Shown one piece after another: positions 29,733 through 58,758 of a DNA stretch of 64,000 bases. Origin of the DNA: a virus. The position numbers were made by a program, and so were the translations under genes. Position 1 is the first letter of the stretch; each line of letters starts with the position of its first letter. The stretch covers positions 1-64,000 of IMG/VR virus record IMGVR_UViG_3300042502_001136; one strand, 5' to 3'. The notes beneath the pieces are model-generated. The model saw nothing but the letters and a program-made list of their open reading frames with translations. It searched no databases and was not told the DNA's origin.

Positions 29733-29773
29733 AAAAATAAGACTACTAATAGGTTTAGTATTAGTAGCCTTAT
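29733..29773 (-). terminator. intrinsic terminator after MCP
   Basis: ATAAGACTACTAATA/TATTAGTAGCCTTAT inverted repeat with A-run. Confidence 0.65.
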
Positions 29774-40206: not shown

Positions 40207-40773
40207 CTATTTATTATTACCTTTATCTGTTAATATAAGTGGTGGATTTTTTTCATCTATATAGGCTTTAACTTGGTCAACTACGCCTACTATTGGTTCT
40301 GCTCTATTATTAATAATAGCAGCTTCTCTTATAGCTTCTTCTACAGTAATATCTTCAGGAGTTACTACTGGTTTACTAATACTATTAATATAAATAGCAA
40401 AGCTAGTATTAATATAACTAGCAATACCATTAAGAAAGAAATCTTTATATGCTTGTAGTTCGCATTTTGTTGCATTTTCCCCAATAGAAGGAGGATAGTA
40501 GTTATTTACTAATTCAATTCGTTTACCAATAATACTTTCACTTTTATCAGTAAGTACTAATATAAAAGCATAATAATTAGTAATAGGTTTAACTCCATCA
40601 AGAGTAATAACTTTATCACCTTTAACAAATTCAATAGTATATGAATATTTACGTTTATTAGCATAAGCTTGATTAGTAAGAAAAGCTAATATAGATTTAG
40701 CTTGTAGACGATAATTAGTAAGTTCTTGAGGAACAACTTTATTACCTTTGTCAGTATTATTAGATTCTATCAT
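40207..40773 (-). CDS. hypothetical protein, first gene of the leftward block
   Basis: 188 aa ORF. Confidence 0.7.
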   Translation of the reverse strand: MIESNNTDKGNKVVPQELTNYRLQAKSILAFLTNQAYANKRKYSYTIEFVKGDKVITLDGVKPITNYYAFILVLTDKSESIIGKRIELVNNYYPPSIGENATKCELQAYKDFFLNGIASYINTSFAIYINSISKPVVTPEDITVEEAIREAAIINNRAEPIVGVVDQVKAYIDEKNPPLILTDKGNNK

Positions 40774-40912
40774 CTTTATAATCTTTAATAGTTATTAATA
40801 TTAGTTCATAGTCAGTAGCAAATATACAAATACTTTTTTAATATACCTATTTTAAAGCGAAAATTCGTATAATATTTTTCATTCTTACAAAACCATCTTC
40901 TATTGGGGAAAA
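40475..40912. repeat. inverted pair of dispersed motif copies
   Basis: TTTTCCCCAATAGAAG at 40475-40490 and its exact reverse complement at 40897-40912. Confidence 0.75.
40819..40826 (-). promoter_or_regulatory. Bacteroidota-type -7 promoter element for the leftward block
   Basis: TATATTTG (TAnnTTTG) about 45 nt upstream of the ATG at 40773; no clear -33 TTTG. Confidence 0.45.
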
Positions 40913-41039
40913 GCCGGTACGAGTGTTAAAAATGTTAAATTATTAGTATATCAAATCCATATACAATATATTATATATATAGTAAATTATAATATATGTA
41001 TTTTTGATAGAGGTAATATAGGTGGAACTATTTAATACT

Positions 41040-41343
41040 TGTAAATGTGCAAGTATAGGGTTTCTTGTGGGTGGTTTTGACGAAAGTCTTGAGGGTAATC
41101 GATGTTGGTGTTAGGTAGAGGTGTAAGGATTTTGTAGGAAAAAGGTAGAGGGTAAGGTGTTTAAAGAGAGGGATTTAAATGAGGTTGTATAGGGATTGTA
41201 ATAAAAGGGGATTTTGTTGTAGGAGTTTATGGAGGGTAAGGGGATTTTGTTGATGGTGTTGGAAGGGTTGATGTGGGTGTAGGGATTAGAGGATTGGGGT
41301 GTAGAGGAATAGGTACTTATATATTAGACCCGTACACGTGTAC
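41040..41343 (+). other. G-rich non-coding tract ending at a 12-bp palindrome (origin/terminus candidate)
   Basis: nearly C-free plus strand; direct repeat AAGGGGATTTTGTTG at 41205 and 41238; GTACACGTGTAC at 41332-41343. Confidence 0.5.
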
Positions 41344-42872: not shown

Positions 42873-43232
42873 GGTGTTAAGGGTTTGGGGAGTGTTATAG
42901 CTGATTGGAATAATCGTGAGAGAGATGAACCATAGGCACAAGCACGTAGAGGCAGGAGAGGTAGTGATAGTTAATAGTATTGTTGGTTAATACTCAAATT
43001 ATACAAGTCATTTTACTCCTGCATTCTCCCCTAATCATAACCCTCATAATAAACACCATCAAAACCCTACACACACACACCCTAATAACCCTATTCCTAT
43101 TCCAATCCACACACAACAACCTCAACAACCTACTAAACCTTATACACCATTAACACCAATACACGACCATTACAATACAATTACAGTAACCAATGTGATT
43201 ATCAACAACTTACCTAATACTACAATATTACA

Positions 43233-43523
43233 ATGTATAGACCAAGAAAAATACAAGTTTGTAGCACTGCTACTGCACTTAAAGCATCTAATAGAAGATT
43301 TCTTATTATTAGAAAAGAAAAAGATGATAAAACTATTAATATGATTCATATTAAATCCTTAACAGCTGAAACAGGTGAAGAATTAGGAGCAGGTAGTCAT
43401 CTATCAATTAATAAAAAGGTAAAGTATTCATCAATAGGTTTAACTGATGATGCTGCTAAAGAACTTTATGTATGTTTACATCATTATTTAAAAAATAGTA
43501 TAAATATACCAAATACACAATAA
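43233..43523 (+). CDS. hypothetical protein
   Basis: 96 aa ORF. Confidence 0.7.
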   Translation: MYRPRKIQVCSTATALKASNRRFLIIRKEKDDKTINMIHIKSLTAETGEELGAGSHLSINKKVKYSSIGLTDDAAKELYVCLHHYLKNSINIPNTQ

Positions 43524-43525
43524 TC

Positions 43526-43657
43526 ATGATGAAACACATTATACTAAATGCAATAATAGTAATAATTATTATACTAATAGGTAATTTATATATTGGTTAT
43601 TATTTGAAGATTAAATCAATTAACAATCTTAAAAATAAAGGTCATGAATCAGTTTAA
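43526..43657 (+). CDS. small single-TM protein
   Basis: 43 aa read by hand (MMKHIILNAIIVIIIILIG...); fills the gap between neighbours. Confidence 0.45.
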   Translation: MMKHIILNAIIVIIIILIGNLYIGYYLKIKSINNLKNKGHESV

Positions 43658-44396
43658 AAGAGCACAAGTAATAATGTTACCTACAAAAGATAAAAATTCA
43701 GGTATTATTCTTAGTAATAAAAAACCTTATATATATAATAGAATAGGAAAAAATAATAATTTACTAGGTAATGATGATTCAGTATCTTTTCAACATTTAT
43801 CTATTATTTCAGATGATGAAATTAAAAAAAAGGATTGGTATATTAAAGCAGGTTGTGAATTACCTATTAAGGCAAGTTATAATATAGGTTTATGTAAAAA
43901 TCGTAAAAAAATTATAGCTACAATAGATACTTCATTAAAAATTACTAAATCTGTTACTCATTCAAGTCCTAATAATACAAATAGTATTAGAAAAGAATTA
44001 ATTGTAGAAACATTACCTCAACCATCACAACAATTTATTGAAAGATATATTGAATCTTATAATAAAGGTGAAGTTATTACTGATGTATTAGTTGAGTATG
44101 AAACTAAATGTATTGGTTGTGGTGCTTATGTTAATAAAGATATGAAATATTGTTCTTATCCTGTACCTGATGAACATAATAGATGTTTACATGATGTACT
44201 TAAAGTAAATTCTAAAGACAATACTATTACAATTAAAAAACTAAAAGATAGTTGGAGTAGAGAAGAGGTTATTGAATTTGCTTATAATTTATTAAAAGCT
44301 ACGGGTAAAGAAATTAAAGCAGAAATGGTAGAAATTAGAACAAATCCTCATATTGAATTTACAGGAGTAGATGAATGGATTGAAGAAAACTTATAA
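43644..44396 (+). CDS. hypothetical protein with Zn-ribbon-like segment
   Basis: 250 aa; CIGC...C...H..C. Confidence 0.75.
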   Translation: MNQFKRAQVIMLPTKDKNSGIILSNKKPYIYNRIGKNNNLLGNDDSVSFQHLSIISDDEIKKKDWYIKAGCELPIKASYNIGLCKNRKKIIATIDTSLKITKSVTHSSPNNTNSIRKELIVETLPQPSQQFIERYIESYNKGEVITDVLVEYETKCIGCGAYVNKDMKYCSYPVPDEHNRCLHDVLKVNSKDNTITIKKLKDSWSREEVIEFAYNLLKATGKEIKAEMVEIRTNPHIEFTGVDEWIEENL

Positions 44397-44425
44397 ACAA
44401 ACACAAATAAAACCAATACAAGATT

Positions 44426-44746
44426 ATGAACACAGAAAACATAGAAACAGTAAAAGCTCCTATTGATTTAACATCTAACTTAACCAATGAGAGTGTATTA
44501 ATACCTAGAAAAGTATTAGATGCTTTAATAGGTAATCTTATGATGGTTAACTTTGACTATTATAGAAAAAGTTTATCTAATAAAATATTAGATGCTAAAT
44601 CAATGAAAGATTTAAAAGATATAATATTCTTTGAAGCTGAATATTGGAATACTCTTGATAAGTATGAAACTATACTAAAAGAAGAGATTGAAATAGAAGT
44701 AACAGCTGATGAAGCTACTGAAAGTGTTGAATATAAAGCTCATTAA
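44426..44746 (+). CDS. hypothetical protein
   Basis: 106 aa ORF. Confidence 0.7.
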   Translation: MNTENIETVKAPIDLTSNLTNESVLIPRKVLDALIGNLMMVNFDYYRKSLSNKILDAKSMKDLKDIIFFEAEYWNTLDKYETILKEEIEIEVTADEATESVEYKAH

Positions 44747-44749
44747 GCT

Positions 44750-44980
44750 ATGTCAATACAAATAGCACGTTTATCAGCTGACATTGAAGTAGGAGGAACT
44801 ATTCATAAAATTAACTACGTTCAAACAAAATTGGACGTAGTTAAATTTGCAGGAGGTTCTGAAAGAGGAACATCATTACAACTATCATTTCTAAATGAAG
44901 ATAAAGAAAGACAACATATTCAATTAGATAATGATAATGTAAAAGAATTAATACAAGCATTAATAGAATATTTTAAATAA
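44750..44980 (+). CDS. hypothetical protein
   Basis: 76 aa; FAGGSERGTSLQLS. Confidence 0.7.
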   Translation: MSIQIARLSADIEVGGTIHKINYVQTKLDVVKFAGGSERGTSLQLSFLNEDKERQHIQLDNDNVKELIQALIEYFK

Positions 44981-44985
44981 TAATC

Positions 44986-45228
44986 ATGACAAAAGTAAAA
45001 GAAATAACAGTAGCTATTGCACAACATAGTTTCTTTATAATAGAAGAAAATAATAAAGTTAATAGAATTATTGATGGTAATGAAGGAGATAATACTGTAT
45101 TTAAAATAGTTAATTTATCGCCTTCAATAGCTTTAAAACTTACTGATTTTTTATTAGATGCTGTCGATAAAGATATTCTTGTAAAGTTATTTAATGATAC
45201 ACATTCATTAATTTTTAATCCAAAATAA
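44986..45228 (+). CDS. hypothetical protein
   Basis: 80 aa ORF. Confidence 0.65.
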   Translation: MTKVKEITVAIAQHSFFIIEENNKVNRIIDGNEGDNTVFKIVNLSPSIALKLTDFLLDAVDKDILVKLFNDTHSLIFNPK

Positions 45229-45232
45229 TAAT

Positions 45233-45634
45233 ATGTTTGACATGAATTATATAATACTAACTATAGCCATTATCGTTGTATTTGGACTAATAGTAACTTT
45301 ATTAGTTATGAAGATATCTTCTGCTACTATTAAAGAAAGACAACATGATGTTGCATTTAATTGTGATATATATACTCCTTTTAATGATAAAGAAGTGTAT
45401 GAAAGACAGTATAGTGTTACAATACACTATTTAGATAATCTTATCCAACTTTTAGAAAGTTCAGATTATGCTATTAAAGATGGAACAATTGCAAGATTTA
45501 AGGGAAATTATTATATTTATTGTACTACTAGTATACATAAAGATAAATGGATTCCTTGTAATGTTGTTCTTATTGCAGATAAAATTAAATTTATATCCAT
45601 AAAACAAGATGTACTACTTAAACAAAAACCTTAG
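45233..45634 (+). CDS. membrane-anchored hypothetical protein
   Basis: 133 aa; N-terminal TM helix. Confidence 0.65.
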   Translation: MFDMNYIILTIAIIVVFGLIVTLLVMKISSATIKERQHDVAFNCDIYTPFNDKEVYERQYSVTIHYLDNLIQLLESSDYAIKDGTIARFKGNYYIYCTTSIHKDKWIPCNVVLIADKIKFISIKQDVLLKQKP

Positions 45635-46019
45635 AATATCTACACCTGCTCTTATTACTTTACTTGAAGCTAATAATTTCAAGATTAATAAAGATGAAAC
45701 AAAAGTAATTATTGTAGATAAAATCAGACTTAGTGAAGCTTCTTGTACTTTAGAAGAAGCTCACACAGAATTAAAACGATTATCTCCTATTTATAATAAA
45801 TATGAAAAAGTACCTGAAAATCTACTTAAACTTAAAACAATAAATCATATGTTTATTGATATTGAGAAAGAATATAGAGAATTAAGAGAAAAACTTGTTT
45901 ATTATTATTGTATTCAAAATTGTGTTAAACGATTAGGAAGAGTTAATAAAATAATCGAAAAATCTATTACTACTCCTTTTGCTATTGATAGCCCTTGTGA
46001 TAGTAATACTCCGACATAA
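45609..46019 (+). CDS. hypothetical protein
   Basis: 136 aa ORF. Confidence 0.65.
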   Translation: MYYLNKNLRISTPALITLLEANNFKINKDETKVIIVDKIRLSEASCTLEEAHTELKRLSPIYNKYEKVPENLLKLKTINHMFIDIEKEYRELREKLVYYYCIQNCVKRLGRVNKIIEKSITTPFAIDSPCDSNTPT

Positions 46020-46039
46020 TATGTGCCGATATATTAGAG

Positions 46040-46192
46040 TCACTACCTGTAAAGGTGGCAGCATAGAAATATGCCTTACACATAGTAATATGTTATCAGT
46101 TAACCAATAACACTGATATTAATGTAAGTAGTTAATAAGAATCTTATTAACATTGTGCAAATAGACAACACTCCTGCTTGTGTTTCTATTAA
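46040..46192 (+). ncRNA. candidate structured RNA with three GNRA-capped hairpins
   Basis: CTACCT-GTAA-AGGTGG, GCATA-GAAA-TATGC and CATA-GTAA-TATG, plus further stems. Confidence 0.55.
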
Positions 46193-46217
46193 GTATTAAC
46201 AAAAAAACAACCAAATA

Positions 46218-46592
46218 ATGGAAGCATTTAAAGACTATTACAAATTTCCACTCAAACAAGAACCAGTATTAGAAGAAGTAGTATTAACTGCTGATGATAA
46301 TTTTGCTATTGAGTTTGTAGAAGAAGATGATAAAAAAGGATTATATCTTTCTGATGTAACTAAAAAAGAAATAATTCATGCTCTTAATAAAGGAAATAAA
46401 ATACAACAGTATTTTCCTAATCTTAATATTGAAGGAAGTTATATTAAATCAGGTAACAAAACTCTTATATCTATAAGAGGTTGGGGTAATCTTACTGGTA
46501 TTGGTGGACATAATTTAGATGTTGATAAAGCTAAATCTATTCAACATCAATTTGCTCTTTATATAGTTAATTGTTTGACTAAATCTTTATAG
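46218..46592 (+). CDS. hypothetical protein
   Basis: 124 aa; IRGWGNLTGIGGHNL motif. Confidence 0.75.
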   Translation: MEAFKDYYKFPLKQEPVLEEVVLTADDNFAIEFVEEDDKKGLYLSDVTKKEIIHALNKGNKIQQYFPNLNIEGSYIKSGNKTLISIRGWGNLTGIGGHNLDVDKAKSIQHQFALYIVNCLTKSL

Positions 46593-46594
46593 AT

Positions 46595-46771
46595 ATGAGC
46601 AAAGAAAAACGACCTAGAATAGCAATAGGACAATTAGTTCGTTCAACAAATGAAGTACAACAAAGTTGTATTAGACAATTATGCATTGCTCAATATTATA
46701 ATCCTAATAATTATACTCGTATTAAACGAAAAGTAATACAATCAGAAGATGAACAAGAAAAAACCAATTAA
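46595..46771 (+). CDS. small hypothetical protein
   Basis: 58 aa read by hand (MSKEKRPRIAIG...); below the track cutoff. Confidence 0.55.
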   Translation: MSKEKRPRIAIGQLVRSTNEVQQSCIRQLCIAQYYNPNNYTRIKRKVIQSEDEQEKTN

Positions 46772-46785
46772 ATAAATAACTAATA

Positions 46786-46989
46786 ATGAAGAAGAAGCCT
46801 AAGTATGTGGTAGTAGTACCTACACATAGAAGAACAGGTGCAACAGCTCCTGCAATTACAACATCAGTAACATATGTTAATATTGATGATTTAAATAATA
46901 ATGATCGAAAAAGAGCAATAGATGAAGCTGAACAAGCATCAAGACTAAGTGCTTCTGATGAATACGATTTTAGAATCAAAGAAAACTAA
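46786..46989 (+). CDS. hypothetical protein
   Basis: 67 aa ORF. Confidence 0.6.
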   Translation: MKKKPKYVVVVPTHRRTGATAPAITTSVTYVNIDDLNNNDRKRAIDEAEQASRLSASDEYDFRIKEN

Positions 46990-46994
46990 GATTG

Positions 46995-47365
46995 TAGAGG
47001 TTAAACATTGAAACCTTGTATCTAAATCACCTGATACAAAAGAAAGAGTATCGAAAATAGTAATATATAAGATGCTCCACACAACACTTGAAATGGTATT
47101 TGAGAGTGAACATAGGATATTAGTAGTATTTAGAGATACTTATAGTGATATATCTGTTGATATATCTGTTGATGTGTGATGGGTTACCAGCATGACCATT
47201 ATAAATAATAAAAGTATTAGATAACAAATCTAAAATTGGGATACTTAAAGTTTATGATGGTGCTAATGATTAAAAAGGAGAAATCCATAAAGATACTCAT
47301 TTTTGGTTGAGTTTTATTTGTTTGTTTGATGTACTACCCCGCTACACTTACATAGTGTAGCGGAA
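46995..47365 (+). ncRNA. candidate large structured intergenic RNA
   Basis: nested stems, including GAGTATC/GATACTC and ACCATTATAAA/TTTATGATGGT; ends with hairpin CCGCTACACT/AGTGTAGCGG. Confidence 0.4.
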
Positions 47366-47462
47366 TTACATTTTTACCCCTTTGTAGTACTATAATATTA
47401 CTTTAGATATAAAGTTCAATACAAGTGTTTAAAATAAGCCAAGAATTTTACTAATGATGATA

Positions 47463-47576
47463 TTTACCCCAATAGAAGATAGTGTTCGTTTGAGGTAATT
47501 GAAATATATCATTATATTAGTGATAATATTAATGCTCATATTACAGACAAAACAAACATTCCCTCTATTGGGAAAA
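47463..47576. repeat. inverted pair of dispersed motif copies (intergenic)
   Basis: TTTACCCCAATAGAAG at 47463 and CCTCTATTGGGAAAA at 47562. Confidence 0.7.
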
Positions 47577-47611
47577 ATATTAACTATAGAAACTTTAATA
47601 ATTATATATAT

Positions 47612-47944
47612 ATGGCGTTAGAACTAGAACAAATCAAATTGAAACATGGTCTTCTACTAATAGAAGAAGAAAAACCAATGGTAGCAACACACTCAGGTGG
47701 TGTAGCTAAAACACAAGACACTATTAATGCAGAAATTGCAAAAAAACAAATTTACATAGGTAAAGTTGTTAAAGTAATTAAATCATTAAAAGACGAAGAT
47801 GAAGATTGTATTGATTGCAAAGAAGGTGACATAGTATGTTATCAAAAACAAGCTTGTGACCCTTTTGATATTCCTATTAATGGATATAACAATCTTAAAA
47901 CAATAAGACCTGTTTATATCATTGCTATTATTACAAGTGAGTAA
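47612..47944 (+). CDS. groES: co-chaperonin GroES-like protein
   Basis: LLLIEEE...THSGG mobile loop, GKVVKV, KEGDIVCY, IIAII. Confidence 0.75.
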   Translation: MALELEQIKLKHGLLLIEEEKPMVATHSGGVAKTQDTINAEIAKKQIYIGKVVKVIKSLKDEDEDCIDCKEGDIVCYQKQACDPFDIPINGYNNLKTIRPVYIIAIITSE

Positions 47945-48269
47945 TGTAATCACAAAATATCTATTAGAACAAGGAGAACTTATTGCACAAACTACCAGCT
48001 ATGGTAGAGCAGAAAAATTCAATAAAACTCTTGAAGCTATAGAAAAAGAAAGACCTAATTGGGTAACTAGAATAGGTTATTTTAAAAAACTTATTGTTCC
48101 AAATAAAATAGAGTTTAATAATGTTAATAAAGAACCTTATCCTATAACTCTAAGCATACTTCCTACATTAGATGTTCCAAAAGAAAATATTAAATATGAA
48201 ATACTATTTACTATTGGAAGTGAAGATGATGGAAAATTATTAAGTTATATAGAAATAGAAGAACCTTAA
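47922..48269 (+). CDS. hypothetical protein
   Basis: ORF; start codon uncertain. Confidence 0.6.
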   Translation: MLLLQVSNVITKYLLEQGELIAQTTSYGRAEKFNKTLEAIEKERPNWVTRIGYFKKLIVPNKIEFNNVNKEPYPITLSILPTLDVPKENIKYEILFTIGSEDDGKLLSYIEIEEP

Positions 48270-48287
48270 CTATTTATACTCTCTCAT

Positions 48288-48560
48288 ATGGATAAAAATA
48301 CACCCAATTTAGAACATGATAAATATCCACAAGTATTTAATAGAGAATATCCTATTAAAGATATGTCTGTTGGATATTTAAAGACTCAAATTGAAAAGAT
48401 AGAAAGAACTGAAATTAATTCTGAATATCTTAAAGATTTGAAAGCTGAATATAAATTTAAAACAACTATTAGATTTGTATCTCTTACAACTAAAACTAAT
48501 TGTGATTTTACAATTAAATCAAAAATTACTATAACCCTTAATCCTAATAATCTAAAATAA
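48288..48560 (+). CDS. hypothetical protein
   Basis: 90 aa ORF. Confidence 0.65.
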   Translation: MDKNTPNLEHDKYPQVFNREYPIKDMSVGYLKTQIEKIERTEINSEYLKDLKAEYKFKTTIRFVSLTTKTNCDFTIKSKITITLNPNNLK

Positions 48561-48562
48561 AA

Positions 48563-48745
48563 ATGAACGATAGATTCAAAATCCTTAAAGGAACGCCACA
48601 AGATGTAGAAGAAGTATTAAATGAACTTGTAACAAAAGGACAATTTGTTAAAGTAATTAGTAGTTGTGCTATGGGCACAAAAGATATTGCTGTTACTTGT
48701 TTTGTTCGTCCTGATAAATTAACTGCCGGTAAAGGTACAAAGTAA
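48563..48745 (+). CDS. hypothetical protein
   Basis: 60 aa ORF. Confidence 0.65.
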   Translation: MNDRFKILKGTPQDVEEVLNELVTKGQFVKVISSCAMGTKDIAVTCFVRPDKLTAGKGTK

Positions 48746-48748
48746 GAA

Positions 48749-49417
48749 ATGAAAAGAATACTAATTTTTGATACAGAAACACATGATAGAGCTAAGAATT
48801 TTGGTAAACCTGAAGATGATTTAACTAATTATCCTTATGTTTTACAAATTGCTGGTAAAATCATTGAAGTTGATGAAACTCTTGCAGATTTTAATCCTAA
48901 GATAATATATACTTTTAATAAGTATGTAAGACCTACTAGGGATAACAAAGAATTTATAATAACTCCTGCTTCTAAAAAAATACATAATTTATCAGAAGAA
49001 TTACTTTTTAAAGAAGGAGAAGATATTAAAGATATTAGTTATCACTTTAATGGATTAGCAAATGCAGTAGATTATATAGTTGCTCATAACATTCAATTTG
49101 ATAGAAATGTTATGGCTTCTGAATTACTTAGATTAGGCATTAAACCTACAGCTAAAAAAGGTTGTAGAGCATTTTGTACTATGAAATATAATACTAACAT
49201 TATTAAACTTCCTAATCCTAACTACCCTAATAGTTTTAAATTTCCATCATTAAGTGATATGTATTTGTATTACTTCAAAAAGGAATTAGCAGAGAACTAT
49301 AAAGCACATGATGCTATGGGTGATGTAGACGCATTAACAGATTGTGTATTAGTTATGCTATTAACTGATAATAATTTTGCTGAATGGATTAAAGGAAATG
49401 TTGAAGATATTTATTAA
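48749..49417 (+). CDS. DEDDh 3'-5' exonuclease (DnaQ-like)
   Basis: IFDTET, VAHNIQFD, AHDAMGDV. Confidence 0.92.
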   Translation: MKRILIFDTETHDRAKNFGKPEDDLTNYPYVLQIAGKIIEVDETLADFNPKIIYTFNKYVRPTRDNKEFIITPASKKIHNLSEELLFKEGEDIKDISYHFNGLANAVDYIVAHNIQFDRNVMASELLRLGIKPTAKKGCRAFCTMKYNTNIIKLPNPNYPNSFKFPSLSDMYLYYFKKELAENYKAHDAMGDVDALTDCVLVMLLTDNNFAEWIKGNVEDIY

Positions 49418-51122: not shown

Positions 51123-53450
51123 ATGATATACTTTGTAACAGAAAGAAAAGAATATTATAGAGAACGTATTAATAAAGATATATTTTCTGATATTATTATT
51201 CTAGATAGTATCGAAGGAAAAGAGCTTTATTATAAATTACTAGGTAAACGAAAAATACTAGCATTTGATATTGAAGCTAATGGATTGGATGCTCATACAC
51301 TTAGTCCCATACTTTATGGTATTGGTGTTAAAGGTATTCAATTTATGTTTGATTGGACTGTTGATATTAAAGATATTTTTGAACACATATTAAAGTATAA
51401 TATTATATTACTAGGACACAATTTAAAGTATGATATAAAGGTAATAGCAGTAAATTATAATATACTGTTTACAAAACTTTATGATACTATGATTGCAGAC
51501 CAAAGAATATGGATGAAAACTGGATATAGATTTAGTTATGCTGAATTAGTACAAAGATACTTAAATAAAACAGTTCTTAAATCTACTAGAAATGAATTTA
51601 TTGATGCAGACCCTTCTACATTTAAAATAACTGCTTCTCATTTATATTATCTTAAAGGAGATTTAGTTGATTTATTTGATATTAGAAAAATACAACAAAA
51701 ACACATTAAGAAATATAATATTCCTTTTCTTATTTATGGTATAGAATTTCCATTAATCTCAGTTATAGCAGAAGCAGAACTTACTGGTTTTGAATTTAAC
51801 ATAGATTTATGGAGAGAACGTATTAAAAAAGATAAAGAAGAATTATATAAACTTAAATTAGCTTTAGATGCTGAAGTTAAAAAGTTAAAAGAGTTTGTAA
51901 GTTTATTTGGAGATAATGGAGATATTAGTATTAATACTCTATTAGGCGGACAAAAATATAATAAAGAACGCAAACCTAGTGAATTAGAAGATTTTGTTAA
52001 TACTGATGATACTGTTAATCAACCTGATTTATTTGGTAACAAAATGACTACTAGAGCTTTTACAGGACTAAAAAAGAAGATTGATATTAATGTAGGAAAT
52101 ATTAATTATAAATCTAAAAAAGATATAGTTTTTATATTTGCTGCATTAAAAGAACCTCTTATTACTCCTTTAGAAACTATTGCCGTTCCACAACTAGATA
52201 AAAAAGGTAAATTAATTGGTAGCGTTGATAATTTTACTATTAAAGCTGATTTATTACAAAAGTTTATATTGTTAAAGCCTAATTCTAAGATGATACCATT
52301 TATAGAATTAATTATAAAACATAGTAAACTTGAAAAAGCTTTAAGTACTTATGGTGAAAATTTTATTAATAAAATTAATCCTAAGACTGGTAAAATTCAT
52401 ACTATCTTTAGACAATGTGATGCAGATACAGGTAGATATCAATCCGGAGGAGGAGATAATGAACCTGATAAATATAATGCACAAAACATTCCTAGAGATA
52501 ATGCTTATAGAAATTGTTTTACTGTTGATACAAGTAAATATAGTTTAGTTACTGCTGATTATGAAGGTGCAGAATTAGTAGTTATGGCATCTCATGCTCA
52601 AGACTTTAAACTAATAGAGATATCTAAACAAGATATGCATAGCTATATGGCAACTAAATGTTGGAAAAATATTTACTATTATAGAGCTAAAAGATTATTT
52701 GATTATTTTAGTGGTAATATTGCAGGAAAAACAACAGAATTAATAAATGAATATAAACAATTAAAAGACTTATCACAAAACTATTTAGTTACTAAAGCTA
52801 TAAAATATGTTCGTGATGCTTTTAAACCTATGACTTTTGGAGTTATTTATGGTATGTATCCTAAAAAAGCAGGAGCAACCTTAAATATACCATCAGAAGA
52901 AGGTAAAATTGTTATTCAAACTATTGAAGCTGAAATTCCTGATACTATTAAAATGGTTAAACAAGCTTCTGCTTTTGCTAAAGCTAATGGTTATGTTATT
53001 TTAGAATCTAGAACTAATGCACGTGCATGGTTTCCTAATCTTATTAAACTTCTTAAAAAAGAAATTAATGAAAAGGATAACTTTTATGATATATCTAGTG
53101 AATTATCGGCTGCTCGTAATATTAGAATTCAAGGTACTCAAGCTACATTTCTTAAAGAAGCCGCAGTAGTATTACGTAAATATTTTAAAAAACATAAAAT
53201 AGATGCTATTCAATTATCTTGGGTACATGATGAATTTATTATTCAAATACCTCTTCATTTAGATGGTCAATCAGATGAATGGAAAGAATGGAGTAAGTCA
53301 AATTCACTCAAACACCCTCTATCTATTGGGGAAACTGTTGAAAGTCTAGCAGATGTTATTAAAATTGTATTACAAGAAGTTGCTAATAAATATTTAGAAA
53401 ATATTACTATTAGAGTTGATTTACAAGTAAAACCTTATTGGTTTAAATAA
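51123..53450 (+). CDS. polA: DNA polymerase family A with 3'-5' exonuclease domain
   Basis: FDIEANG, GHNLKYD, TGRYQS, NAQNIP, ADYEGAEL, KPMTFGVIYG, IQGT, VHDE. Confidence 0.93.
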   Translation: MIYFVTERKEYYRERINKDIFSDIIILDSIEGKELYYKLLGKRKILAFDIEANGLDAHTLSPILYGIGVKGIQFMFDWTVDIKDIFEHILKYNIILLGHNLKYDIKVIAVNYNILFTKLYDTMIADQRIWMKTGYRFSYAELVQRYLNKTVLKSTRNEFIDADPSTFKITASHLYYLKGDLVDLFDIRKIQQKHIKKYNIPFLIYGIEFPLISVIAEAELTGFEFNIDLWRERIKKDKEELYKLKLALDAEVKKLKEFVSLFGDNGDISINTLLGGQKYNKERKPSELEDFVNTDDTVNQPDLFGNKMTTRAFTGLKKKIDINVGNINYKSKKDIVFIFAALKEPLITPLETIAVPQLDKKGKLIGSVDNFTIKADLLQKFILLKPNSKMIPFIELIIKHSKLEKALSTYGENFINKINPKTGKIHTIFRQCDADTGRYQSGGGDNEPDKYNAQNIPRDNAYRNCFTVDTSKYSLVTADYEGAELVVMASHAQDFKLIEISKQDMHSYMATKCWKNIYYYRAKRLFDYFSGNIAGKTTELINEYKQLKDLSQNYLVTKAIKYVRDAFKPMTFGVIYGMYPKKAGATLNIPSEEGKIVIQTIEAEIPDTIKMVKQASAFAKANGYVILESRTNARAWFPNLIKLLKKEINEKDNFYDISSELSAARNIRIQGTQATFLKEAAVVLRKYFKKHKIDAIQLSWVHDEFIIQIPLHLDGQSDEWKEWSKSNSLKHPLSIGETVESLADVIKIVLQEVANKYLENITIRVDLQVKPYWFK

Positions 53451-58727: not shown

Positions 58728-58758
58728 AAAGCGTCTGCTATTGTAGACGCTTTTTTTT
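58728..58758 (+). terminator. intrinsic terminator
   Basis: AAAGCGTCTGC-TATT-GTAGACGC followed by T8. Confidence 0.88.

What the first reader, a model, noticed from the sequence alone, without database searches (positions are those of the whole stretch)
46040..46192. Compact intergenic RNA candidate with three GNRA tetraloop hairpins and a multibranch junction
Seen in a 198-nt gap: CTACCT-GTAA-AGGTGG (46043-46058); GCATA-GAAA-TATGC (46061-46074); stem CTTACA(46075)/TGTAAG(46123) enclosing CATA-GTAA-TATG and TATCAGT/ACTGATA; GTTAATAAG/CTTATTAAC (46131-46151); and a final AATAGA-C-AACAC/GTGTT-TCTATT hairpin. Established: GNRA loops are hallmarks of folded RNAs. These loops and a G-U pair work only on the plus strand. 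It does not look like a tRNA or a terminator. Inference: an unannotated ncRNA, ribozyme or cis-regulatory leader.
Basis: partly seen in the sequence, partly recalled or inferred. Interest (0 to 1): 0.72.

Follow-up and report, generated by a model that had tools for sequence, protein, structure and literature searches.

The report
Conserved folded RNA between phage genes
The 198-base gap between two small early genes of an uncultured lake-water crAss-like phage holds a real, compactly folded plus-strand RNA element that a related phage keeps through compensating base-pair changes; it matches no catalogued RNA family and its job is still unknown.

Summary
The gap folds better than all 200 shuffles (z -3.3).

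The only relative I could reach is an 81-kb phage whose helicase is 70% identical. It keeps the element in the same gap. The core differs at 12 positions: 8 form four compensated pairs, none breaks a pair, and the GNRA loop stays GNRA. The outer hairpins are resized or replaced but keep their positions.

Rfam 15, ARAGORN and the terminator scan find nothing. L007 has no ORF of 20 aa or more in its gap.

The window is an 83-kb freshwater crAss-like phage. Fifteen lake metatranscriptome runs hold the stretch. In the two laid, RNA contigs run from the upstream genes into the element and stop inside the last hairpin, and depth falls 2-3 fold.

Best reading: a lineage-specific structured RNA inside the early transcript, acting in cis as a 3'-end, processing or stability module. 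A stable small RNA, a leader for the downstream gene and DNA-level hairpins remain open. Nothing supports a ribozyme.

This scan noted other uncatalogued structured RNAs in crAss-like early regions on other DNA, but not this family.

The parts
45609..46019 (+). Upstream gene, 136 aa, no family. Its stop codon directly precedes the element.
   Evidence: ORF list. No PHROG or credible Pfam hit. The homologue in L007 is 43% identical.
46043..46058 (+). P1 hairpin: a 6-bp stem with one U.G pair and a GUAA loop.
   Evidence: pair probability 0.96-1.0. In L007, CUACU/AGUGG (U.G kept) can pair around a 44-nt insert that is itself a hairpin and carries a GAAA word (my reading).
46056..46062 (+). Invariant word GGCAGCA, spanning the P1 3' arm, the CA linker and the start of P2.
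   Evidence: GTGGCAGCA is present in both phages.
46061..46074 (+). P2 hairpin: a 5-bp stem with a GAAA loop.
   Evidence: In L007 the same position holds a 38-nt extended hairpin that keeps the closing GCA/UGC.
46075..46128 (+). P3 three-way-junction domain. The outer stem pairs 46075-80 with 46123-28. P3a is 46081-92 (GUAA loop). P3b is 46094-46118 (7 bp, 11-nt loop). The junction is U46093 and UUAA 46119-22.
   Evidence: Ungapped alignment with L007. P3a has 2 pairs and P3b 2 pairs changed on both sides, with 0 broken. The P3a loop changes GUAA to GCAA. The P3 stem and junction are invariant. Simulation.
46131..46151 (+). P4 hairpin: 9 bp with a 3-nt loop, a near-perfect palindrome.
   Evidence: L007 has a 6-bp hairpin at the same position. 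The first four pairs align and one of them is compensated.
46151..46158 (+). Invariant single-stranded word CAUUGUGC between P4 and P5.
   Evidence: Identical in both phages. It pairs with CACAGU upstream in the L007 MFE. The equivalent pairing has probability 0 in the window.
46160..46190 (+). P5 hairpin: 6+5 bp with one bulged C, an 8-nt loop and no U-tract. RNA contigs of two studies end inside it.
   Evidence: L007 has an unrelated 7-bp hairpin at the same position. RNA contigs end at 46174 (X7) and 46169 (X9), while a DNA contig runs through.
46191..46217 (+). A-rich unpaired leader up to the ATG of the downstream gene.
   Evidence: Unpaired in the MFE. Partly conserved in L007.
46218..46592 (+). 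Downstream gene, 124 aa, phrog_12467 (function unknown).
   Evidence: It is 67% identical in L007. It has 35% relatives in Flavobacterium phages FpV4/Fpv3, whose genome FpV4 has no match to the element model. The AlphaFold model is too poor to use (pLDDT 43).

Best explanation
Shown: the gap encodes a compact, multi-helix, plus-strand RNA domain. It has five tandem helices, one of them a three-way junction, and three GNRA loops. Its base pairing is kept by selection in a small lineage of freshwater crAss-like phages.

Shown in part: the element is present in lake metatranscriptome assemblies on the same contigs as the two upstream genes.

Inferred: it has no promoter of its own. It is made as part of the rightward early polycistronic transcript and acts in cis as a punctuation module. 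An RNA 3' end, from pausing, partial termination or endonuclease cutting, forms at the last hairpin P5. The tightly folded P1-P4 domain then shields the upstream message from 3'-to-5' decay. The upstream genes would therefore end up 2-3 times more abundant than the gene that follows.

The generic part, a conserved structured RNA, I put at about 0.8. The cis punctuation and stability mechanism I put at about 0.4.
For: Structure is real and selected:
- z -3.3 with 0 of 200 shuffles as good.
- The syntenic copy in L007 sits between the same two genes.
- The 59-nt ungapped core has 12 differences: 8 in four fully compensated pairs, 1 at the N of a GNRA loop, 3 in the 11-nt loop, and none in junctions or breaking a pair.
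- Random placement keeps all pairs in 6e-4 of trials, and adds at least 4 double changes in 1e-6.
- P1 and P2 are resized, and P4 and P5 replaced, by other hairpins at the same positions.

RNA rather than protein:
- L007 has no ORF of 20 aa or more in its gap, and the short window ORFs have no counterpart there.

Plus strand:
- GNRA loops, a conserved U.G pair, and the plus-strand structure being 3-7 kcal/mol better than its mirror.

Transcription:
- 15 RNA runs hold the stretch.
- RNA-library depth varies from 0 to 77 along 6 kb, unlike the DNA runs.
- RNA contigs span 45233-46174 (X7, depth 10.8) and 45617-46169 (X9, depth 7.5). The next contigs have depth 3.2 in both runs.
- The DNA contig 46026-47017 runs through the stop point.

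No own promoter seen:
- No TAnnTTTG word on the plus strand between 45240 and 46297.
- No strong sigma-70-like site nearby.

Not a plain terminator:
- The phage's own terminators are long stems with U-tracts, and P5 is not.
Against: - There are only two distinct sequences, so covariation rests on one comparison.
- The P3 stem and the junctions never vary.
- The RNA evidence is from assembled contigs. It gives no strand, no true ends and only one mean depth per contig, and the tool itself rates coincident contig stops as a weak hint.
- The contigs stop 16-21 nt before the 3' foot of P5, not after it, which does not fit simple hairpin termination.
- P5's sequence and loop are not conserved.
- A stability hairpin would not need GNRA loops, a three-way junction or invariant single-stranded words. 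These features suggest a more specific fold or partner.
- The minus strand folds as well by z-score.
Confidence: 0.4

Rival explanations
1. It is a separate, stable small non-coding RNA of about 130-150 nt (P1-P4, perhaps with part of P5). It would be released from the early transcript or made from an unrecognised promoter. It would act in trans on a host or phage partner, as a small counterpart of the abundant early intergenic RNAs of phi14:2.
For: - The compact fold has GNRA loops, a three-way junction and invariant single-stranded words, which fit a specific partner better than a mere decay barrier does.
- In crAss-like phage phi14:2, two early intergenic regions are transcribed above most genes and persist through infection, function unknown (bioRxiv 10.1101/2020.03.07.982082).
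- RNA contigs stop at 46169-46174.
Against: - No promoter-like motif lies upstream.
- RNA contigs are continuous with the upstream genes.
- The complement of the 11-nt loop has no target in the window above chance.
- It is not homologous to anything in phi14:2.
Confidence: 0.2
2. It is a 5' leader that controls the downstream 124-aa gene. It would be a protein-binding or ligand-sensing domain (P1-P4) followed by an expression platform (P5 and the conserved CAUUGUGC word).
For: - The layout is a folded domain, then a hairpin, then an A-rich leader 27 nt before the ATG.
- The element travels with this gene in both phages.
- AUUGUG can pair with the bases just 5' of, or overlapping, the start codon in both phages (my reading).
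- The stretch 46187-46201 is 13/15 complementary to the P3/P4 strands at 46123-37.
- Depth falls before the gene.
Against: - The alternative pairings are AU-rich, short and not clearly kept in L007.
- P5 has no U-tract.
- Relatives of the gene at 35-39% identity (L003-L006, FpV4) have no match to the element model. L003-L005 have coding sequence running up to the gene; L002 has an unrelated-looking non-coding stretch upstream.
- Riboswitch classes are normally widespread, and this element is confined to two phages.
Confidence: 0.15
3. The hairpins act in DNA, not RNA. They would be extruded stem-loops serving as start or pause signals for the injected virion RNA polymerase, as in N4-type hairpin promoters. 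Alternatively they would be binding sites or a single-strand initiation signal.
For: - Compensatory changes preserve DNA hairpins as well as RNA ones, and the minus strand folds as well.
- P4 is a near-perfect 21-bp palindrome with a 3-nt loop.
- The crAss-like virion polymerase gp66 transcribes denatured DNA, and its early transcripts share no linear upstream motif.
- The element lies among small early-type genes.
Against: - Three of three tetraloops are GNRA, and one stays GNRA after a substitution.
- A U.G pair is conserved in P1.
- The plus-strand structure is consistently better than its mirror.
- A three-way junction is hard to extrude from duplex DNA.
- RNA contigs run through P1-P4 from upstream rather than starting there.
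Confidence: 0.1
4. It is a new self-cleaving ribozyme whose cut site lies near 46170-46175.
For: - The three-way junction and GNRA loops.
- RNA contigs of two studies stop at 46169 and 46174 while DNA runs on.
- Small ribozymes are common in phage metagenomes (general knowledge).
Against: - No match to any Rfam ribozyme family, even at E<10.
- The junction strands (0, 1 and 4 nt) lack the hammerhead core.
- The region around the putative cut (P5) is not conserved in sequence between the two phages.
- Contig stops are weak evidence.
Confidence: 0.04
5. There is no function. The hairpins are chance or neutral features of AT-rich spacer DNA.
For: - Narrow distribution, with only two genomes.
- AT-rich sequence makes short complementarities common.
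Against: The z-score, the compensatory pattern with probability about 1e-6 under random placement, and conservation of the core at 75-78% identity, as high as the neighbouring conserved gene.
Confidence: 0.05

Closest known systems
Abundant early intergenic non-coding RNAs of the crAss-like Cellulophaga phage phi14:2 (g004-g005 and g005-g006 junctions; Drobysheva et al., bioRxiv 10.1101/2020.03.07.982082)
   Same: - Also a crAss-like phage, and the RNA lies among the small rightward early genes.
- Also an ORF-free intergenic stretch that is transcribed.
- Function unknown and not in Rfam.
   Different: - The phi14:2 regions lie in a 1.7-kb CDS-free stretch, whereas this element is about 150 nt.
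- The core model finds nothing in NC_021806, so there is no detectable homology.
- High abundance or persistence has not been shown here.
Intercistronic mRNA-stabilising hairpins (REP elements such as malE-malF in E. coli; from general knowledge)
   Same: - Structured RNA between two cistrons of one operon.
- The upstream segment is more abundant than the downstream one (10.8 vs 3.2 and 7.5 vs 3.2).
   Different: - REPs are simple repeated palindromes present in many copies per genome.
- This is a single-copy, multi-helix domain with a three-way junction, GNRA loops and invariant single-stranded words.
Intrinsic (Rho-independent) terminators
   Same: P5 is a hairpin at the place where RNA depth falls.
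   Different: - P5 has no U-tract and an AU-rich bulged stem.
- It was not called by the terminator scan.
- The phage's own terminators at 58728-58753 and 29737-29773 are long perfect stems followed by U-runs.
Hammerhead and other small self-cleaving ribozymes of phage metagenomes
   Same: Similar size, a three-way-junction topology, and a phage setting.
   Different: - No Rfam hit.
- The junction strands are 0, 1 (U) and 4 (UUAA) nt, so the CUGANGA/GAAA core is absent.
N4-type DNA hairpin promoters for a virion RNA polymerase (from general knowledge)
   Same: - Short stem with a 3-nt loop (P4) in the early region.
- The phage carries a giant virion polymerase-like gene.
   Different: - The features here favour RNA: GNRA loops, the U.G pair and the junction.
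- No transcript start is seen at the hairpins.

Membership tests
Any Rfam 15 family | Covariance-model score at or above the family's gathering threshold | tested here: not met
   There are 0 matches in the whole window at gathering thresholds. At E<10 on 45950-46280 there are only three matches, at 7.6-20 bits against cut-offs of 54-290.
tRNA / tmRNA | Cloverleaf recognised by ARAGORN | tested here: not met
   No gene found in the window.
Hammerhead ribozyme | Three helices around the conserved core CUGANGA ... GAAA with a UH cleavage site | tested here: not met
   The junction strands are 0 nt, U and UUAA. No Rfam hammerhead hit at E<10.
Intrinsic terminator | GC-containing hairpin followed directly by a U-tract | tested here: not met
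   P5 is followed by AAGUAUUAAC. It was not listed by the scan. The phage's real terminators have U-runs.
phi14:2 early intergenic lncRNAs | Sequence or structure homology to the phi14:2 RNAs | tested here: not met
   Model R1 finds nothing in NC_021806 at E<=1. Only the core model was tried.
phi14:2 early intergenic lncRNAs | [quoted passage not shown] | not testable with these tools
   Only assembled contigs of environmental RNA libraries are available. They give one mean depth per contig and no time course.
Riboswitch or regulatory leader | Conserved aptamer plus mutually exclusive pairings that gate a terminator or the start codon | tested here: inconclusive
   Alternative pairings exist in the window but are not clearly kept in L007. 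P5 has no U-tract. Ligand or protein binding cannot be tested.
Intercistronic stabiliser (REP-like) | Upstream message more abundant than the downstream one, with 3' ends at the structure | tested here: inconclusive
   Depth falls from 10.8 to 3.2 in X7 and from 7.5 to 3.2 in X9. Contig stops are at 46174 and 46169. This is contig-level evidence only.
N4-type hairpin promoter | Transcripts of the virion polymerase that start just downstream of a 5-7-bp, 3-nt-loop DNA hairpin | not testable with these tools
   No 5'-end data. P4 is 9 bp with a 3-nt loop.

The most novel reading that the evidence does not exclude
The P1-P4 domain is a self-contained tertiary fold. GNRA loops would dock on helices, and the invariant CAUUGUGC and GGCAGCA words would make long-range contacts. 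Such a fold would have a specific biochemical activity new for phages: either a nuclease-resistant knot that halts host exoribonucleases (analogous to viral xrRNAs), or a new small self-cleaving or protein-recruiting RNA that cuts the early transcript at P5.
Probability: 0.08. Interest if true: 0.85.

Novelty: new variant of a known kind. Interest (0 to 1): 0.45.

Why it matters
CrAss-like phages are among the most abundant viruses known. Their early transcription, carried out by an injected giant polymerase, has no known promoters, terminators or RNA signals. The only cultured model showed unexplained, abundant early non-coding RNAs.

This element is small, about 150 nt, and cleanly delimited, with visible covariation. 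It is therefore an experimentally tractable example: it is short enough for SHAPE, in-line probing, cleavage assays and structure determination.

If it marks RNA 3' ends or blocks decay, it would give a first handle on how these phages set the ratios of their early gene products. As it stands it is a candidate new RNA family with two members and no demonstrated function.

Tried and rejected
**Searches for more homologues**
Four DNA-pattern scans covered viral, metagenome and genome contigs.
  - They returned only L007/L009/L092, one identical version of the element.
  - The other hits were chance or coding matches: L008, L089-L091, L100-L106, and about 48 portal-like coding hits.
  - L104 scored 21 bits with the model, but it is antisense inside a coding region and has no P3b hairpin.
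- Protein-guided scans used the downstream gene, alone and as a 6-sequence profile, and the upstream gene.
  - They found only L007 and relatives at 34-39% identity, in which the core model finds no match.
- A helicase-profile scan gave 80 loci. The next relative, L010 (50% identical helicase), lacks the small genes and the element.
- blastn of the locus against 50,697 phage records found no match.
The ENA/Logan contigs of four closer relatives (P0002-P0005, 62-77% identical) could not be fetched, and the listing of cluster members gave no accessions.

**Other tests that led nowhere**
- The AlphaFold model of the downstream protein has pLDDT 43, so no fold search was made.
- A closing helix P0 (46015-20 with 46152-57) appears in the L007 MFE but has probability 0 in the window. 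It is left as tentative.
- The motif after P5 (TTCTA..TAAC) is not convincingly repeated elsewhere.
- The complement of the P3b loop has no target above chance.
- My first attempt at a genome-wide z-score script timed out and was rerun on a smaller set.
- Runs X15 and X24 showed no sequence variants inside the element, so they add no covariation data.

Full report
**What is there**

The window is the first 64 kb of an 83,238-bp virus record with direct terminal repeats and about 27% G+C. Structural genes lie on the minus strand. Small unknown genes, followed by replication genes, lie on the plus strand.

The major head protein and large terminase fall in PHROG families 11589 and 6681. The head protein is 35-37% identical to those of crAss-like phages and has matches in Flavobacterium phages. 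Sequencing runs that hold the stretch are all labelled lake water. The window is therefore a divergent freshwater crAss-like phage.

The finding sits in the 198-nt gap 46020-46217. On one side is a 136-aa gene with no family. On the other is a 124-aa gene of phrog_12467, function unknown.

**Checking the observation**

- P1, 46043-58: GUAA loop and one U.G pair.
- P2, 46061-74: GAAA loop.
- P3 stem, 46075-80 with 46123-28. It encloses P3a (46081-92, GUAA loop) and P3b (46094-46118, 11-nt loop).
- P4, 46131-51.
- P5, 46160-46190: one bulged C and an 8-nt loop.

RNAfold returns exactly these helices as the minimum-energy structure. The energy is -42.8 kcal/mol against -30.5 +/- 3.7 for dinucleotide shuffles, z -3.30, with none of 200 shuffles as good. 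Pair probabilities are 0.67-1.0, apart from one terminal P3 pair at 0.27.

Among 11 gaps of 90-360 nt in the genome, only three reach z below -3. The other two are single classical terminators.

The reverse strand folds as well by z-score. Energy alone therefore does not give the strand.

**Comparative evidence**

Only one relative could be reached, an 81-kb virus record with terminal repeats (L007). An identical copy of its element lies on a JGI metagenome contig (L092). L007's helicase is 70% identical, the downstream gene 67% and the upstream gene 43%.

L007 has a 221-nt gap between the same two genes, and the gap contains the element.

The 59-nt core, from the end of P2 to just past P3, aligns without gaps and differs at 12 positions:
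- Eight differences make four fully compensated pairs: C-G to A-U and A-U to G-C in P3a, and C-G to U-A and U-A to C-G in P3b.
- One difference is the N of the GNRA loop (GUAA to GCAA).
- Three differences lie in the 11-nt loop.
- None lies in a junction or breaks a pair.

A fifth compensated pair lies in P4. With partners slid by 1-3 columns, no compensated pair remains. Placing 12 substitutions at random keeps all 17 pairs in 6e-4 of trials. It keeps them with four or more double changes in 1e-6 of trials.

Outside the core the helices behave as modules:
- P1's stem words recur in L007 (CUACU/AGUGG, with the U.G kept). They flank a 44-nt inserted hairpin that carries a GAAA word. This pairing is my reading of the sequence.
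- P2 is lengthened to 38 nt.
- P4 is shortened to 6 bp.
- P5 is replaced by an unrelated 7-bp hairpin in the same place.

Three single-stranded words are invariant: GGCAGCA, UUAA followed by UGUAAGUAG, and CAUUGUGC.

Core identity is 75-78%. That is as high as in the well-conserved downstream gene and higher than in the upstream gene.

L007 has no ORF of 20 aa or more in its gap on either strand. The short ORFs in the window's gap have no counterpart there.

**Strand and molecule**

Several features point to plus-strand RNA:
- All three tetraloops in the window are GNRA, and one stays GNRA after a substitution.
- L007's P1 insert also carries a GAAA word.
- P1 keeps a U.G pair, which would be a C.A mismatch on the other strand.
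- The consensus structure is better on the plus strand than its mirror on the minus strand in both phages: -37.7 vs -34.3 and -51.3 vs -43.9 kcal/mol.
- The flanking genes are on the plus strand.

I take this as good, not conclusive, evidence for RNA rather than DNA hairpins.

**Known families**

- Rfam 15 gives nothing at gathering thresholds for the whole window. At E<10 on the locus it gives only three sub-threshold matches.
- ARAGORN finds no tRNA or tmRNA.
- The junction strands (0 nt, U, UUAA) exclude a hammerhead core.
- P5 has no U-tract and was not called as a terminator. The phage's real terminators, at 58728-58753 and at 29737-29773 after the head gene, are long perfect stems followed by U-runs.
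- A covariance model of the core (R1, 89 positions, 26 pairs) finds one copy in each of the two phages.
  - It finds nothing credible in 1.36 Mb of loci from 80 helicase-related phages.
  - It finds nothing in the next relative's whole genome, in phi14:2, or in Flavobacterium phage FpV4.
- Five further pattern scans of the public collections gave only chance or coding hits.

The family is real but, as far as I could see, confined to two phages. Four closer relatives of the downstream protein exist in ENA/Logan assemblies.

**Expression**

Fifteen lake metatranscriptome runs hold the stretch. I laid two RNA runs from different studies and two DNA runs on 43000-49000.
- In the RNA libraries the summed depth ranges from 0 to 77 along the 6 kb, which argues for RNA rather than carried-over DNA.
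- RNA contigs run from the upstream genes into the element and stop at 46174 (X7, 45233-46174, depth 10.8) and 46169 (X9, 45617-46169, depth 7.5).
- The following contigs over the downstream gene have depth 3.2 in both runs.
- A DNA contig (46026-47017) passes straight through the stop point.

These are assembled contigs. They show no strand and no true ends, and the tool rates such coincident stops as a weak hint. The stops also lie in the 5' arm or loop of P5, not behind the hairpin.

No Bacteroidota-type TAnnTTTG word lies on the plus strand between 45240 and 46297. No strong sigma-70-like site lies nearby either. This fits co-transcription with the upstream genes.

**Interpretation**

Shown: a conserved, structured, plus-strand RNA element that is present in RNA libraries and matches no catalogued family.

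Inferred: it is part of the early polycistronic transcript and acts in cis. A 3' end forms at P5, by pausing, partial termination or cleavage. The folded P1-P4 domain then protects the upstream message, giving the 2-3-fold step in abundance.

I rate this mechanism at about 0.4. The rivals are:
- A released, stable small RNA acting in trans (0.2). This would be a small analogue of the abundant, persistent early intergenic RNAs reported for the crAss-like phage phi14:2, whose function is unknown (bioRxiv 10.1101/2020.03.07.982082).
- A leader controlling the downstream gene (0.15).
- DNA-level hairpins for the injected virion polymerase (0.1). In phi14:2 that polymerase transcribes denatured DNA, and no linear early-promoter motif was found upstream of its transcripts.
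- A new self-cleaving ribozyme (0.04).
- No function (0.05).

The GNRA loops, the junction and the invariant single-stranded words are more elaborate than a decay barrier needs. I cannot explain them, and they keep the more specific readings alive.

**Relation to earlier notes of this scan**

The same stretch was noted once more from an overlapping window (e1-6065847). A look-up by sequence found no look-alike on other DNA.

By words, the scan holds several follow-up reports of other uncatalogued structured RNAs in the early regions of crAss-like phages. These are unchecked AI notes on different sequences. They make this a recurring theme rather than an isolated oddity. They do not support this element's function.

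**Verdict**

This is a candidate new small RNA family with two members, clear but thin covariation, contig-level evidence of transcription, and unknown function. Interest is moderate: the element is tractable and sits in an interesting biological setting, but its distribution is narrow and its role is unproven.

Noticed in passing
window 46585-47260 (gap 46990-47611): RNA contigs of both metatranscriptomes are deepest here (X7 46585-47247, depth 31.4; X9 46791-47260, depth 8.2). They end at 47247/47260, in X7 with Illumina adapter joined directly. Depth then falls to about 0 until 47614. This suggests an abundant RNA with a 3' end near 47250 inside the second, 622-nt gene-free gap. The same gap is about 1.7 kb in L007.
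   Followed up: partly
window, 15 sites, e.g. 40899-40913, 40474-40488, 47564-47578, 47462-47476, 53322-53336: The word TCTATTGGGGAAAAG (up to 3 mismatches) occurs 15 times against 2.4 expected. It lies on both strands and in both genes and gaps.
   Followed up: partly
window 58728-58753 (+) and 29737-29773 (-): Two textbook intrinsic terminators: long perfect stems followed by U-runs. The second lies directly after the major head protein gene. They show what ordinary terminators look like in this phage.
   Followed up: yes
window 41040-41310: A G-rich, nearly C-free tract with repeated GGGATTTTGTTG-like words at the switch between leftward and rightward genes. The palindrome GTACACGTGTAC follows at 41332-41343.
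   Followed up: no
L098 3381-5711 (Flavobacterium phage FpV4, NC_041872): 2.3 kb without any annotated CDS directly after the FpV4 homologue of the 124-aa gene. This may be another long non-coding stretch in a related setting.
   Followed up: no
window 45057-45091, 43295-43329, 43670-43704, 46708-46742: Pieces of about 35 nt were laid from DNA and RNA runs with unlike sequence on both sides. They are short words shared with other contigs of the same lakes and remain unexplained.
   Followed up: no
L002 495-754: A distant (34%) homologue of the 124-aa gene in another viral contig is also preceded by about 250 nt of non-coding sequence. It looks hairpin-rich and unrelated in sequence to this element.
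   Followed up: no
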